Below, in pieces: positions 2,882 to 48,239 of a DNA stretch of 64,000 bases. Position 1 is the stretch's first letter. Each line of letters opens with the position of its first letter. This stretch comes from Octopus vulgaris (taxonomy: Eukaryota). The DNA lies in contig OX597821.1 in assembly GCA_951406725.2 (NCBI GenBank), positions 27,404,001-27,468,000 of the forward strand, written 5' to 3'. The notes beneath the pieces are model-generated. The model worked only from the letters and a program-made list of their open reading frames with translations. It had not been told where the DNA came from and made no database searches. Position numbers and translations under genes: made by a program.

Positions 2882-3095
2882 TAGTTAATCCATGAAAACA
2901 CAAAGAGAAAACACAACAACGCACGGATGTGGGACATGTATCGTATTATTAAGGAAAGAAAGAAGGAGGATTCAACGTTTCGAGCGAAGCTCTTCGTCAG
3001 AAACATATAAAAAGGAAAGGTCTAAGGAAGGAGAAAGAATATCGTCAACGATACACACGCGGTCACATATTGAATGACCGGAGGGAATGGGTATA
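2882..3095 (-). mobile_element. PLE pLTR-like repeat with minimal hammerhead (HHR 2970-3004)
   Basis: Minus strand: gttt CTGACGA a gagc ttc gctc GAAAC GTT gaat. Homologous copies at ~11890, ~32150 and ~39165. The 3' end ggattaacta abuts a TA-rich tract. Confidence 0.75.
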
Positions 3096-3794: not shown

Positions 3795-3796
<2 letters not shown>

Positions 3797-4344
3797 GTTT
3801 AAATATTTGTTGTGCAAGATTTTTTATGTGAAGTCGTGTGTTGAAACAGATATTGTTATATTTCGGAATGGTCATATTGCCAGTTTAGCCAATAAAAACA
3901 CACGCACTATATATTTGGTGTTATTTTGCTTCAGTGATATTTATTTTTTACATTAATCTTAATCTTATTTCGGCCAAAGTTCTTTCGTCACACTCCTGTG
4001 ACCGCATCAGTGGTCCTTTGTTTTCTTCTCACTTACTTGTGTCTCTCCTTACTAACCGTCAGCCATTTTGTATTTCTATTGTATGTCTTCATTTGCGCAT
4101 GCTTATATCTCTATGTGCGTCTATGTTTATTTAGTGTGTGTGTGGGGGGATGCCTGTAATACTTCTATCTTCTGTTTATATACATTCTTGTAATTTGTAT
4201 TTTGTTTTTGTTGTTGTTGCTTTTGTTCGAATTTTGTTCATGTGTTTACACCCACCCATTATTATCATTACATATGCTTGTATGTATGTATAACAACAAT
4301 ATTAGTAATAATAATAATAAATCTAATCGAAAAAAAACAAAAAA

Positions 4345-4385
<41 letters not shown>

Positions 4386-5379
4386 TACACACATATATAC
4401 ACATATACATATATATATATATACACACATACATATATATAGTTATTCATTTCTATTTCTTTAATTATCTGTGTATTTATTATGTTTGCAGGATCCACTA
4501 TCGTCATATGTTGTGGTGTGTGCTATTGCTCCATTCTAGTTTTCTATTCAGGCTAGGTTTATTTTCTATTATATGTGTAGCTTCTGTAATTTGTCTAATT
4601 GTTGCATCTGTTCTATGTGTGGACAATATCTTAATCTCTATGTTATTGATTGATCCCCCGTGTTCTTGTTCGGCGTGTTGGTACAGAATCGATGAGCTTT
4701 TACCTTCCTTGAGTTGTCTCCAATGTTCATTCACCCGCTCTCCAATGCTTCTTGCTGTTTCCCCTGCGTATGTTACTGTCTTGTTACTGCATCGTCCCTC
4801 TATACATCTTATACTATAGACCACATTTCTGGCTTTACAGTTTGTTTGTGGGCTAAATCTACATACAGTGCAATACTTATCCGTACAGAGAGTTCTACTA
4901 AAAGGATAGGTTCTACCAATTATAGATCTGATAGGGTTGCCTGGCTTTTCAACAACCTTAATTCTTAGTTTAAGTTTATCTAGGGTCCTTCTAAAGCGGT
5001 ACGCCAGTTCACCTCCAGGGGTGGTGTCAACGAACATGACACTCTGGTATTTATGGCTATCATACCAAGATAGAAATATTACAGGCATCCCCCCCACACA
5101 CACTAAATAAACATAGACGCACATAGAGATATAAGCATACGCAAATGAAGACATACAATAGAAATACAAAATGGCTGACGGTCAGTAAGGAGAGACACAA
5201 GTAAGTGAGAAAAAAACAAAGGACCACTGATGCGGTCACAGGAGTTTGACGAAAGAACTTTGGCCGAAATAAGATTAAGATTAATGTAAAAAATAAATAT
5301 CACTGAAGCAAAATAACACCAAATATATAGTGCGTGTGTTTTTATTGGCTAAACTGGCAATATGACCATTCCGAAATAT

Positions 5380-5383
<4 letters not shown>
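3795..5383 (-). mobile_element. 5'-truncated Penelope-like retroelement with inverted 5' pLTR
   Basis: Near-identical inverted repeats at 3854-4171 and 5067-5383 flank a GIY-YIG coding segment. There is a ~55-60 bp 3' tail extension (3795-3853) and (AT)n on both sides. Confidence 0.9.
4504..5066 (-). pseudogene. C-terminal Cys-rich linker and GIY-YIG endonuclease of a PLE ORF (uninterrupted, 5'-truncated)
   Basis: CTDKYCTVC...NCKARNVVYSIRC...TYAGETARSIGERVNEH...LYQH...RQITEATHI...LNRKLEW. The ORF-track N-terminus (5067-5169) is only the fused inverted pLTR. Confidence 0.9.
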
Positions 5384-6850: not shown

Positions 6851-7422
6851 AAATAACGTTGGTCGATTTTACGGCTCTCAAATGGCATCTGTCGGTGATT
6901 GGAGGATGATAATTTTTGTCAGCATTTGATGTTATTTTATTTCTTAAATCTTTAGGGCTAAGGGTATCATAACGTTAAGTAGTATCAATTGGAATGGGTT
7001 TGTTTGGCAGCGTGAAAGTGTGTGTATGTGCGTTTGTGCATATGTGTCATGCAAGAAAAAATGTAAGGTAATTTACGTTTATGCTCTCTTAATGGCATGA
7101 TGTCACCCACTGTGACAGATACAAATATATCCATGTGCAAAATCTAGGAAAGAAGAGAGAATAGAATATATCTCAAGCAGAATAGAGTAAAAATGGGATG
7201 CAGAATGAAGGTAAAAGTTTTAAATATGCGGACTACAATGATTATATCTTAAGAGCATTTTGTTAAAGTGAACTTAAATAACATTAAGTGAAACTATCAA
7301 TTTACATGCAATATTATCTATACACTAATATACACATCTATATGTAGGTATGCACACTTGTATGTGTGAGTGTATATACAAGTGAGTGTGTGTGTGAGTT
7401 TATGTATGAGTGTGTGAGTATA

Positions 7423-7486
<64 letters not shown>

Positions 7487-7489
<3 letters not shown>

Positions 7490-8256
7490 CAACAATTGAG
7501 GGTCAAATTAATTAATTATTAATCAATTTCACCAAGTATTCAGTATGTAAAGGGACCATTTAAGGCGAATTCAAATTATTACATTATATAAAAGGGCTTA
7601 GTAAAATAAATTACTTTGCCACATACTGAACTCATTAGAAATAGTAGCTAAAAAAACTTTTTTAGAACTATTTCTAATACTTAAAGAAAATCTCTCTCAA
7701 ATAGTGTTTGCTCAATTCAACTCACGAAAGTATGGGGGTAAAGACATTAAAAAATCAAATGCAAAGGTTATTTGAGAACGTACGTTTCAAGATTAGTCAA
7801 CTCGACATTTCTATCATCAGCTCAGAACTCCTTGGTTTGGATTTGAAAACACTGAAAGTGGGAGCATACCCTTTCAGCTTCTTATCGCTTCTGAAGATCT
7901 GCTCGAAACTAACAGTGCCAGCAAACCCAAAAAAATGCAAGCGACGAATTTCTGCTCTCCCCTTTCCACCAGCGTGGGTTAAAATCAGTAAACACTATGC
8001 TTTTTCGGTAAAATCCGAAGCATTTAAATAGAGAGAGATGAATTATAATTTCAACAATTGAGGGTAAAATTAATTAATTATTAATCAATTTCACCAAGTA
8101 TTCAGTATGTGAGTTGAATTGAGCAAACACTATTTGAGAGAGATTTTCTTTAAGTATTAGAAATAGTTCTAAAAAAGTTTTTTTTAGCTACTATTTCTAA
8201 TGAGTTCAGTATGTGGCAAAGTAATTTATTTTACTAAGCCCTTTTATATAATGTAA

Positions 8257-8261
<5 letters not shown>
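7487..8261 (-). mobile_element. Non-coding HHR element: 562-bp monomer, partial tandem copy and inverted arm
   Basis: 7487-7548 is repeated directly at 8049-8110. 8109-8261 is the reverse complement of ~7574-7725. HHR at 7773-7824; flanked by (AT)n. Confidence 0.85.
7773..7824 (-). ncRNA. Type I hammerhead ribozyme, minimal, palindromic stem III
   Basis: tgag CTGATGA tagaaatgtcgagttgactaatctt GAAAC gtac GTT ctca. Stem I tgag/ctca; stem III region AACGTACGTT is a perfect palindrome. Confidence 0.75.
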
Positions 8262-8293
<32 letters not shown>

Positions 8294-8367
8294 ATATGTG
8301 TGTATATTGTGTGTATATATATATATAAGGATATGTGTGTATATTGTATATATATATATATATAAGG

Positions 8368-8398
<31 letters not shown>

Positions 8399-8406
8399 AG
8401 GATATG

Positions 8407-8442
<36 letters not shown>

Positions 8443-8535
8443 ATATGTATATATATATATATATATATATAAGGATATATGTGTATATATATATGTATAT
8501 TTATATATGTATACGTATGTGTATATATACATATA
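8262..8535. repeat. Compound (AT)n minisatellite with recurring aaggatatg(tg)ta spacer
   Basis: About six aggatat units separated by variable (AT)n. Confidence 0.85.
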
Positions 8536-39164: not shown

Positions 39165-39390
39165 GTGTAATGAATCCAAATAAGAACAAGCATGAAAAAT
39201 CAAGAACGAGAGGACGTGGTACAAGTAATGTATTATCAGACTCTCAGGAAAGAAAGGAAGACGATTTTACGTTTCGAGCAAAGCTCTTCTTCAGAAATAG
39301 AGCTATGTTCAAAAGAAGGGAAGACGGAGAAAGAAAGTCGCTAGCGATTCACATGTGGTTACAATTTGAAATGACCGGAAGGGAATGGGT
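39165..39390 (-). mobile_element. PLE pLTR with intact minimal HHR core (39264-39298)
   Basis: attt CTGAAGA a gagc ttt gctc GAAAC GTA aaat. Confidence 0.78.
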
Positions 39391-39559
39391 GAGGAAAAAG
39401 TTCTTTCTAAGACAGGAGAGTGTGAGGGAAGAGGATATGCGCATGTATGTGTGTGTATGTGCGCTCGCGCAGGTCTGTGTGTGTGTGTAATAATAGCACG
39501 TGTGTGTGCGCACGTGTGTGTATGGTTCTGGCTTTTTATATGTGTATGTGTGAGTAAAC

Positions 39560-40100
39560 CGTGTGTCGCTTAATGTCGATTGAAAAATTTATAGGACAGG
39601 TTAGAAATTCTGATAAAATACCTTTAACTATGCTATTTAGCACGATTTTAGGATGACTAGACAGAAAGCTGATATATTGCAAAGACTCATTAGGCTTATC
39701 GTGAAGGAGATAGAAGCTAGTATCTAAGTCAAATACCACATGTAAAAAGTTGTCAACTTTAATATTATTTTCGAACGAAATTGGGAAATTATAGCGTTTA
39801 AAAATATATATGAGAACTTTTCCGAATACGCTCAATGGATAGGTTAGACATTCACGAGGCTATGAGAAGAACTACATTCTTATATAGACCGCTGAAAGCC
39901 TGGGGAAATAGTGAAAAAGACCGACAAGTTTGTAACTTGTGTTCAGTCTGAGGCGTCCATAGTGAGATCGAGAAGCTGTACGGTGGAATTTCAAGTACAA
40001 TATTTGTTATTAGAAACACGTATTGGTTGATATTACGATATTCGATCGAAAATCGTGAGTAAATTTCTTCGAGAAAATTAGCACCTAGTTAAATAAATAA
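39560..40100 (-). mobile_element. Decayed Penelope reverse transcriptase fragment
   Basis: IFKRYNFPISFENNIKVDNFLHVVFDLDTSFYLLHDKPNESLQYISFLSSHPKIVLNSIVKGI (PLE FLD...KPN...Y...SxHP motif). Upstream MDASD*TQVT resembles the MG motif. Confidence 0.8.
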
Positions 40101-43875: not shown

Positions 43876-44058
43876 AAATTATTACATTATATAAAAGGGC
43901 TTAGTAAAATAAAGTAATTTATTTGGCAAAGTAATTTATTTTACTAAGCCCTTTTATATAATGTAATAATTTGAATTCGCCTTAAATGGTCCCTTTGCAT
44001 ACTGAACACTTGGTGAAATTGATTAATAATTAATTAATTTTACCCTCAATTGTTGAAA
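43876..44058 (+). mobile_element. Minimal fold-back insertion of the 562-bp HHR family
   Basis: 43925-44058 is the reverse complement of ~7487-7620; 43876-43915 is the inverted arm. Same two termini as the 7487 copy. Confidence 0.88.
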
Positions 44059-46818: not shown

Positions 46819-46855
<37 letters not shown>

Positions 46856-46973
46856 AATCAAGGAACGGCCATAATAGGCCATTCACCCACTAGAAATAAC
46901 AGCCAAAAGCTTTAACCGCAAAATAACATTAATACCGTAAACCAGGAGAAAATTGAAAAACTTTTACCCTGTA

Positions 46974-47080
46974 ATTTCTTAGACGATGCACCGTTTCATC
47001 TACCGTTTAATGGTAAACTAACCTGATTAAATTAAATCAAGCCAATCCACCATAGGCCCCTAGACTCATCAGTAAGAAAT
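46974..47080 (-). ncRNA. Type I hammerhead ribozyme, copy 1
   Basis: atttctta CTGATGA gtcta[long hairpin]tagat GAAAC ggtgcatc GTC taagaaat. Confidence 0.9.
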
Positions 47081-47458
47081 AGCCAAATCGGGACAGATAT
47101 TTTTCACGAGGCATTCCTCTTGCTGCCTCGGCAATATCTGACCTAAAATTTTCAAATCGTCGCACTCGCGCCAAATTTATCGGCAGCAAATGAACCACCG
47201 ATTCCGTTACGGAACTAACCAGAAAATTCATAATTAATCAATATAGGGTGGCAAAAAAAATTTTGTAGAATTCTTTTGCCACCAGCGGCCTAGTAGGAAA
47301 AAATTAAATAGTCATAAACCATTTTTACGTTCAACATCACAATCAAGGAACGGCCATAATAGGCCATTCACCCACTAGAAATAACAGCCAAAAGCTTTAA
47401 CCGCAAAATAACATTAATACCGTAAACCAGGAGAAAATTGAAAAACTTTTACCCTGTA

Positions 47459-47565
47459 ATTTCTTAGACGATGCACCGTTTCATCTACCGTTTAATGGTA
47501 AACTAACCTGATTAAATTAAATCAAGCCAATCCACCATAGGCCCTTAGACTCATCAGTAAGAAAT
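47459..47565 (-). ncRNA. Type I hammerhead ribozyme, copy 2
   Basis: Same motif, 485 bp from copy 1. Confidence 0.9.
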
Positions 47566-47873
47566 AGCCAAATCGGGACAGATATTTTTCACGAGGCATT
47601 CCTCTTGCTGCCTCGGCAATATCTGACCTGAATGGTTTATGACTATTTAATTTTTTCCTACTAGGCCGCTGGTGGCAAAAGAATTCTACAAAATTTTTTT
47701 TGCCACCCTATATTGATTAATTATGAATTTTCTGGTTAGTCCCGTAACGGAATCGGTGGTTCATTTGCTGCCGATAAATTTGGCGCGAGTGCGACGATTT
47801 GAAAATTTTAGGTCAGATATTGCCGAGGCAGCAAGAGGAATGCCTCGTGAAAAATATCTGTCCCGATTTGGCT

Positions 47874-47980
47874 ATTTCTTACTGATGAGTCTAAGGGCCT
47901 ATGGTGGATTGGCTTGATTTAATTTAATCAGGTTAGTTTACCATTAAACGGTAGATGAAACGGTGCATCGTCTAAGAAAT
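47874..47980 (+). ncRNA. Type I hammerhead ribozyme, copy 3
   Basis: Stem I atttctta/taagaaat (8 bp), CTGATGA 47882-47888, GAAAC 47957-47961, GTC 47970-47972 (predicted cleavage after 47972). Confidence 0.9.
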
Positions 47981-48239
47981 TACAGGGTAAAAGTTTTTCA
48001 ATTTTCTCCTGGTTTACGGTATTAATGTTATTTTGCGGTTAAAGCTTTTGGCTGTTATTTCTAGTGGGTGAATGGCCTATTATGGCCGTTCCTTGATTGT
48101 GATGTTGAACGTAAAAATGGTTTATGACTATTTAATTTTTTCCTACTAGGCCGCTGGTGGCAAAAGAATTCTACAAAATTTTTTTTGCCACCCTATATTG
48201 ATTAATTATATATATATATATATATGTATGTTTGTATTC

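What the first reader, a model, noticed from the sequence alone, without database searches (positions are those of the whole stretch)
7487..8261. Second, divergent HHR monomer family (562 nt) with the same tandem plus inversion architecture
Seen: a 562-bp period with partial re-entry (8049-8110), then an inverted arm. It has one hammerhead with a perfect AACGTACGTT stem III palindrome (7773-7824, minus) and no sense-strand ORF in the track. It shares a short motif with the 485-nt family near the inverted-arm terminus (tagaaatagtagctaaaa at ~7636 versus tagaaataacagccaaaa at 46891) and ttgattaat in the tail. Inference: these are two members of a diversified non-autonomous class that uses a common PLE helper and common cis-signals.
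Basis: partly seen in the sequence, partly recalled or inferred. Interest (0 to 1): 0.75.

Follow-up and report, generated by a model that had tools for sequence, protein, structure and literature searches.

The report
Variant-ribozyme retrozyme sharing snRNA-linked motif
This is one of hundreds of copies of a small protein-free jumping repeat with an unusual, predicted self-cutting RNA motif, likely pasted in by Penelope-type enzymes; the short motif it shares with a second such repeat also clusters around the host's U1 and U2 small-RNA genes, so it is likely a host DNA signal rather than a tag for the helper enzyme.

Summary
In detail: 562-nt unit (7487-8048), re-entry 8049-8110, inverted arm 8109-8261, hammerhead on the minus strand. 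It is one copy of a large non-coding family (667 exact ribozyme-core matches). Of 46 consecutive insertions, 35 are two-armed, 33 of those pair one long and one short fixed 3' end, 77 of 81 ends sit in (TA)n, and none runs into a coding frame, as in a young coding Penelope-like family here. The hammerhead is a variant: GUU site and an A.A/U.U mismatch in place of G10.1-C11.1, with covarying helices; distant relatives keep GUA/GUC. The shared 17-mer is real (older copies match the 485-nt family 17/18; 0-4 of 1000 shuffles) but is absent from sampled coding 3' ends. It lies near 55 of 60 U1/U2 loci versus 13 of 60 random tiles and is the core of an old dispersed repeat. 'ttgattaat' is within chance. 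No helper was identified; cleavage and circles are untested. Verdict: non-LTR retrozyme-like non-autonomous Penelope-type element, a known kind that this scan found before in other families of this genome.

The parts
7419..7487 (.). (TA)n target, left flank
7487..8048 (-). Full 562-nt non-coding monomer (RNA sense is minus); long 3' end at 7487; 33.5% GC; predicted highly self-paired (z -7.3)
7487..7579 (-). About 93-nt 'tail' between the short (monomer position about 469) and long (562) 3' ends; well conserved in older subfamilies
7636..7652 (-). Shared 17-mer (derived variant in this copy), 3' arm of a predicted hairpin 7634-7678; about 73 nt upstream of the short end
7773..7824 (-). Type I hammerhead variant: 4-bp helix I, U.U at 10.1/11.1, helix II with invariant AAU/UAA internal loop, palindromic helix III, predicted cut after GUU between 7777 and 7776
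8049..8110 (-). Partial upstream unit (monomer positions 501-562); 5'-truncated end of the left arm
8109..8261 (+). Inverted arm (monomer positions 324-475) ending at the short 3' end; carries a second copy of the 17-mer at 8183-8199
8261..8535 (.). TA-rich microsatellite, right flank
43876..44058 (.). Second, heavily truncated two-armed insertion of the same family (long and short end, TA flanks, no ribozyme)
46851..48209 (.). 485-nt family compared with: two-armed, ends at monomer 379 and 485 (106-nt tail), GUC hammerhead with long helix II, 17-mer at 46891-46907
3796..5383 (-). Truncated young coding Penelope-like element (Neptune-like Zn-finger plus GIY-YIG) with the same two-end, (TA)n anatomy; helper candidate only, shares no sequence with the finding

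Best explanation
The stretch is one insertion of a young, protein-free 562-nt repeat family carrying a variant hammerhead, and it was likely copied into a TA microsatellite by a Penelope-type reverse transcriptase/endonuclease supplied by another element. Shown: two back-to-back arms that end at two fixed points 93 nt apart, random 5' truncations, arms that read across the unit junction, (TA)n targets, no coding frame. Inferred mechanism: tandem units are transcribed; the hammerhead, whose 2-nt helix III loop cannot close in one copy, would cut mainly as a dimer of neighbouring units and probably slowly (GUU site, mismatch at the base of helix II); the resulting unit (likely a circle, or an uncut multimer) is reverse-transcribed from both ends of a cut in (TA)n, one end starting at the long point and the other at the short point, and the two partial cDNAs are joined head to head. 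The 17-mer shared with the 485-nt family is likely a host DNA-binding site that helps these units get transcribed, picked up from an abundant host element, and not a recognition tag of the helper.
For: Family size: 1707 first-look candidates, 285 matches from 40 scored; 667 exact ribozyme-core and 1365 exact 3' 27-mer matches, reversed controls 0. In all 46 distinct insertions among the first 100 listed hits: 35 two-armed, 33 of them long+short; 3' ends at 560-562 (42) or 458-480 (38), one at 443; 77 of 81 followed by (TA)n; 29 of 46 wrap into another unit. Arrays reach 13 full units. Full units differ by 2.7 substitutions within and 9.8 between loci (42 units, 9 loci), and locus-specific variants are shared by both arms. 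A coding family with 1310-1312-aa frames and 96-100% identical copies shows the same two ends (24 long, 15 short of 39 listed, some loci overlapping). Ribozyme: 13 lineage representatives keep CUGANGA and GAAAC; 5 of 16 pairs show two-sided changes, 94% of cells paired, slid controls 26-42%; the helix III palindrome duplex is predicted at 0.96-1.0 between neighbouring units. Motif: 5869 exact 18-mer matches, control 0; near 28 of 30 U1 and 27 of 30 U2 loci, in the majority of loci of all 8 promoter lineages, 91 hits in 381 kb against 15 in 400 kb of random sequence; 19 of 20 shuffled motifs give 0-3 hits there, one gives 19, against 82. Literature: PMC7229834 (passages, sections 14, 17), bioRxiv 10.64898/2026.07.22.740005 (parts 1-3 of 5), 10.1101/2021.04.23.441226 (passages), PMC4209133 (parts 1-2 of 4).
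Against: No helper found: neither the Neptune-like family, a Poseidon-like fragment nor 30 GIY-YIG loci share a 3' sequence with the unit; only a few coding families were sampled. No genomic trace of cutting: 1 of 81 5' breakpoints lies within 5 nt of the predicted site, about 1.6 expected. 58 of 60 sampled ribozymes lack a pair at 10.1/11.1 and all 60 have U17, whereas PMC4209133 calls G10.1-C11.1 highly conserved; the dimer model also pairs A14 with U17 at 0.85 and does not form helix I. Some variants are shared by subsets of units inside one array (L088, L089), which a single monomeric circle does not explain without later exchange. No U1/U2-type proximal element on the sense strand (best score -5.8; real promoters 6.8-24.1) and the motif has no fixed distance to snRNA genes (about -1300 to +1600, both strands), so its role in transcription is inferred only from enrichment. 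48 of 91 snRNA-flank hits look like the old dispersed repeat.
Confidence: 0.7

Rival explanations
1. One reading: it is an RNA-level signal near the short 3' end that a common Penelope-type helper recognises in both families.
For: Same strand and similar place in both families (57 and 73 nt upstream of the short end); it is the best-kept block across a superfamily down to about 65-75% identity, including members found without using it; in the 562-nt superfamily it is the 3' arm of a hairpin.
Against: Absent from all coding 3' regions sampled; present on both strands up- and downstream of U1/U2 genes and roughly once per 27 kb of random sequence counted on both strands; the hairpin context differs in the 485-nt family.
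Confidence: 0.2
2. The shared motif is a passive relic: both families captured a piece of an abundant old dispersed repeat, and the snRNA enrichment reflects where that repeat sits.
For: The 32 nt downstream of the motif in the 485-nt family resemble the old repeat (p about 0.001-0.002); the repeat is common (314 exact 29-mer matches; most of 15 random hits); 48 of 91 snRNA-flank hits are repeat-like.
Against: In the 562-nt superfamily the flanks do not resemble the repeat (p 0.13-0.42 downstream) while the motif itself stays nearly invariant; 43 of 91 snRNA-flank hits have unrelated flanks, some U1 loci carrying three different copies.
Confidence: 0.3
3. The ribozyme of the young subfamilies is dead or nearly so, and insertions are copied from uncut multimeric transcripts of genomic arrays, not from circles.
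For: U17 and a 10.1/11.1 mismatch in 58 of 60 copies; no breakpoint excess at the cut site; active monomer fold has probability about 1e-5; variants shared by subsets of units; 8 of 9 predicted Xenopus dimers did not cleave in the 2026 preprint.
Against: Core letters invariant and helices covary across 13 lineage representatives; two separate mismatch states (A.A and U.U) both spread to hundreds of copies; 13-unit arrays with near-identical units are simpler from a circle.
Confidence: 0.25
4. The unit is the pseudo-LTR of a coding Penelope-like element.
For: Same anatomy as coding elements; retrozymes are related to pseudo-LTRs in Xenopus.
Against: 29 of 46 insertions wrap straight into another unit and none continues into an ORF; the PLE protein hits in 3 of those 46 loci are separated from the unit by about 290-990 nt and TA repeats; no homology to sampled coding ends.
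Confidence: 0.04

Closest known systems
Metazoan non-LTR retrozymes (Cervera and de la Pena 2020, PMC7229834; Li, Clavereau and Pollet 2026, bioRxiv 10.64898/2026.07.22.740005)
   Same: Non-coding, low-GC tandem units each with a type I hammerhead, strongly self-paired; Penelope-like elements already proposed as helpers.
   Different: 562 nt is above the 150-450 bp of the 2020 paper (inside the 51-972 bp of the 2026 preprint); the passages read do not describe two fixed ends, inverted arms or (TA)n targeting; the ribozyme lacks G10.1-C11.1 and uses GUU; expression and circles untested here. Supplements of these papers were not read.
EN+ Penelope-like element insertions and non-autonomous Chlamys derivatives (Craig et al. 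2021, 10.1101/2021.04.23.441226, passages)
   Same: [quoted passage not shown]
   Different: No ORF; tail about 93 nt, not 30-40; no 3' similarity to any coding family sampled, whereas non-autonomous Chlamys generally share 3' ends with their helpers.
Hammerheads of Penelope pseudo-LTRs (PMC4209133, parts 1-2 of 4)
   Same: Short helix I, palindromic helix III, likely dimer-dependent and slow.
   Different: That paper lists G10.1-C11.1 as highly conserved; here the position is A.A, U.U or C.A in 11 of 13 representatives.
Newt satellite 2 with an snRNA-type promoter (seen only as a passage and reference title in PMC2220036; the original paper was not held)
   Same: Hammerhead tandem repeat linked to snRNA-gene signals.
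   Different: No proximal sequence element found in this unit; the link is a distal, position-free motif, and its function is untested.

Membership tests
Metazoan non-LTR retrozymes | Type I hammerhead in each tandem unit | tested here: met
   variant core, see below
Metazoan non-LTR retrozymes | No protein-coding frame; low GC | tested here: met
Metazoan non-LTR retrozymes | Monomer of a few hundred nt in dispersed tandem arrays | tested here: inconclusive
   562 nt, arrays up to 13 full units: above the 2020 range, inside the 2026 range
Metazoan non-LTR retrozymes | Highly self-paired monomer | tested here: met
   z -7.3 linear, -8.0 circular with 40 shuffles; prediction only
Metazoan non-LTR retrozymes | Self-cleavage and circular RNA in vivo | not testable with these tools
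   Only contigs of runs not on record as RNA were available
Canonical type I hammerhead | CUGANGA / GAAA core, three helices, NUH site | tested here: met
   site is GUU
Canonical type I hammerhead | G10.1-C11.1 (or any pair) closing helix II | tested here: not met
   mismatch in 58 of 60 sampled copies and 11 of 13 representatives
Canonical type I hammerhead | Match to an Rfam hammerhead model | tested here: not met
EN+ Penelope-like insertion type | Partial tandem, inverted 5' copy, tail on one end only | tested here: met
   33 of 35 two-armed insertions long+short
EN+ Penelope-like insertion type | Microsatellite target | tested here: met
   77 of 81 ends in (TA)n
Autonomous Penelope-like element | RT plus GIY-YIG frame | tested here: not met
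Non-autonomous derivative of a named Penelope family | 3' similarity to an autonomous family | tested here: inconclusive
   none among the few coding families sampled
snRNA-type promoter repeat | Proximal sequence element about 57-60 nt upstream of a start | tested here: not met
   no sense-strand match in 7 members of the 562-nt superfamily or the window 485-nt unit; 5.7 in one older 485-nt copy, within the null range

The most novel reading that the evidence does not exclude
Unrelated retrozyme families independently captured the same host enhancer-like DNA site that marks U1 and U2 snRNA genes, which drives their transcription, while this lineage tuned its hammerhead down from GUC/GUA with a paired helix II base to a dimer-only GUU form with an open 10.1/11.1 position that still cuts, so that circles survive long enough to be copied from both ends of a Penelope cut.
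Probability: 0.25. Interest if true: 0.68.

Novelty: new variant of a known kind. Interest (0 to 1): 0.45.

Why it matters
The class and the Penelope-helper idea are in print, so the family alone is a modest addition. Three details are testable. (1) A natural series of hammerheads, from GUC/GUA to GUU and from a paired to an A.A or U.U helix II base, each amplified to many copies, tests how far the core can bend. (2) Two fixed ends with exactly one of each per insertion bear on the unexplained Penelope 'tail'. (3) How animal retrozymes get transcribed is largely open; a 17-mer shared by two families and enriched about six-fold near U1/U2 genes gives a concrete site to mutate. Searches for the motif letters in the paper library found nothing, nor did two searches on GUU or 10.1/11.1 variants; the library lacks most subscription papers.

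Tried and rejected
Rfam scans: no hammerhead hit, only low-scoring chance matches. A hammerhead-like string on the plus strand at 7891-7908 was rejected: G at position 17, no helix I or II, not kept in older copies. The 99-aa antisense ORF was rejected: no Pfam hit, kept in 2 of 42 older arms. 'ttgattaat' rejected. RNA evidence: no RNA holder listed; contigs of four runs (three organism labels) cover 29-30 of 30 bins, which cannot show strand, ends, level or circles. A pattern from a loose contig end found 0 matches in the genome. Helper search: own-genome protein search, Pfam GIY-YIG search and a Poseidon-like fragment gave no shared 3' sequence; motif hits in those loci were separate insertions of the two non-coding families or the old repeat. 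Pfam and PDB searches did not name the 1312-aa protein; it is called Neptune-like from RT, DKG-type, Zn-finger and GIY-YIG motifs (motif names partly from Craig et al., partly recalled) and weak BLAST to Pfam-positive GIY-YIG elements. A promoter matrix from 16 U1/U2 promoters found no sense-strand site; an antisense site near 7984 (7.0; null 90th percentile 5.9) is not conserved. My first background for the motif (7 in 563 kb of element-rich loci) was too low and was replaced by random regions. No target-site duplication can be read inside (TA)n. The newt promoter paper was not held. A resemblance of the motif to MEF2 sites is recalled only and was not tested.

Full report
Observation. The window holds a 562-nt unit at 7487-8048, its first 62 nt again at 8049-8110, and an arm at 8109-8261 that is the reverse complement of 7574-7725; both ends run into (TA)n. 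The hammerhead is on the minus strand, so the insertion is two sense arms joined at their 5' ends with both 3' ends pointing outward: one ends at monomer position 562 (long end), the other at about 469-475 (short end). A second, short copy at 43876-44058 has the same two ends. There is no sense ORF, and the antisense 99-aa frame is not conserved. The host is a 2.8-Gb animal genome; earlier notes call it a cephalopod, which I did not check.

Family. A DNA search gave 1707 candidates, of which 40 were scored. Exact patterns give 667 ribozyme cores and 1365 3' 27-mers, with reversed controls at 0. I took every distinct insertion among the first 100 listed hits (46 insertions on one contig). 35 are two-armed and 33 of these have one long and one short end; either end can be on the longer arm; 77 of 81 ends are followed by (TA)n; 29 of 46 wrap into a further unit; 5' breakpoints are spread along the unit, 1 of 81 within 5 nt of the predicted cut. 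Inversion junctions have overlaps or gaps of -7 to +62 nt. None of the 46 continues into a coding frame; Penelope-like protein hits in three loci are separate neighbours. Subfamilies run from 98% down to 73-75% identity, and more distant relatives share the 3' part and the same two-end anatomy.

Comparison inside the genome. The 485-nt family has ends at 379 and 485 in (TA)n. A coding element in the window (3796-5383) belongs to a young family with 1310-1312-aa frames (150 scored of 9272 candidates), RT, Zn-finger and GIY-YIG motifs, and two 3' ends about 56 nt apart in (TA)n. This matches the published anatomy of Penelope-like insertions and is the basis for inferring a Penelope-type helper. 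No coding family sampled shares sequence with the unit, so the helper is not identified.

Ribozyme. Rfam does not recognise it. In 13 lineage representatives CUGANGA and GAAAC are invariant apart from N7, 94% of cells pair, and 5 of 16 pairs show two-sided changes; slid controls pair 26-42% (shuffle counts are not probabilities because the sequences are related). Two departures are the family's normal state: U17 in 60 of 60 sampled copies, and 10.1/11.1 as U.U (27), A.A (31) or U-A (2) (the pattern used counts only copies with an intact core). PMC4209133 lists G10.1-C11.1 as highly conserved. Distant relatives have GUA with an A-U pair (L114), GUC (L126) or GUC with a long helix II and G-C pair (L112), so the variant looks derived. 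The palindrome is kept in young copies but helix III loops vary in older ones. Folding predicts an 8-bp inter-unit helix III, but also an A14-U17 pair, and a very rare active monomer fold. Slow, dimer-dependent cutting is my inference; that U17 lowers rates is recalled, not checked.

Template. Full units differ by 2.7 substitutions within a locus and 9.8 between loci, and both arms share locus-specific variants (42 units), which fits one RNA per insertion. Arms read through the cut site and the unit junction, which needs a circle or an uncut multimer. Variants shared by subsets of units in L088 and L089 do not fit a single monomeric circle cleanly. The monomer folds far better than shuffles (z -7.3).

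Shared motif. As quoted it is not above chance. In five older copies the best alignment to the 485-nt unit is this motif (17 of 18 letters), reached by 0-4 of 1000 shuffles; it is identical in 93 of 93 matched 485-nt copies (overlapping loci counted more than once). It is the only similarity a superfamily profile finds in the 485-nt unit. The 18-mer occurs 5869 times exactly, control 0; of the first 30, 22 are 562-superfamily, 5 are 485-family and 3 are neither. It is the core of an old dispersed repeat. Earlier notes on snRNA-type promoters in other retrozyme families led me to test U1 and U2 genes: with up to 3 mismatches it lies within 1.5 kb of 28 of 30 U1 and 27 of 30 U2 loci (30 of 42 and 30 of 48 matches were fetched), in 24 flank contexts and all 8 promoter lineages, against 13 of 60 random tiles. 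Many of these loci are paralogues, so the 8 lineages are the fairer count. Distance and strand vary, no proximal promoter element is present in the unit, and about half the snRNA hits are repeat-like. A host DNA-binding site is the most likely reading; passive capture and a helper signal remain open.

Comparison with print. Non-LTR retrozymes and Penelope helpers are described in PMC7229834 (passages, sections 14 and 17) and bioRxiv 10.64898/2026.07.22.740005 (parts 1-3 of 5); tails, inversions and non-autonomous derivatives in 10.1101/2021.04.23.441226 (passages). Supplements were not read and may hold comparable ribozyme variants. The scan already reported the two-end anatomy for other families in this genome; a sequence look-up found no note on this family.

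Verdict. Real feature; works like a non-LTR retrozyme mobilised by Penelope-type enzymes; membership is met on sequence features, untested for cleavage and circles; not a canonical hammerhead. New variant of a known kind, interest 0.45.

Noticed in passing
window 3796-5383: Young coding Neptune-like element fragment with its own two ends and a hammerhead-like motif reading CUGAUGCG with a CUU site; thousands of candidate copies, several with 1310-1312-aa frames.
   Followed up: partly
L174-L188 and random regions L319-L336: Old dispersed repeat of about 70-230 nt, no tRNA head found, whose core is the shared 17-mer; about one hit per 27 kb counted on both strands. Not identified.
   Followed up: partly
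L278, L279, L286 (200-620 nt downstream of U1) and L276 (700-950 nt upstream): Three to four copies of the 17-mer per U1 locus, with different flanks downstream and as an 84-nt tandem upstream; extended form TGCTA-N4-TAGCA is an inverted repeat.
   Followed up: partly
L257-L316, about -61 to -56 from the start: Conserved ATCAGT-type proximal element in U1 and U2 promoters; L292 and L299 have an identical different upstream sequence without it, as expected for an element inserted at the U2 start (noted earlier by the scan).
   Followed up: no
L111:5414-6100, L112:4113-5747: Distant relatives of the 562-nt family with long helix II; L112 has a canonical GUC hammerhead, L111 a CUGAAGG core variant.
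   Followed up: partly
window 2978-3000 and 39272-39294 (minus): Two minimal hammerhead-like motifs of another repeat family; a decayed RT-like frame lies at 39536-39859.
   Followed up: no
L150, L155, L162 and related loci: Another young coding family (781-aa frames) with C-terminal GIY-YIG, (TA)n targets and two 3' ends about 37 nt apart.
   Followed up: partly
L088:2407-9127, L089: Variants shared by non-adjacent units in long arrays, some at every third or second unit.
   Followed up: partly
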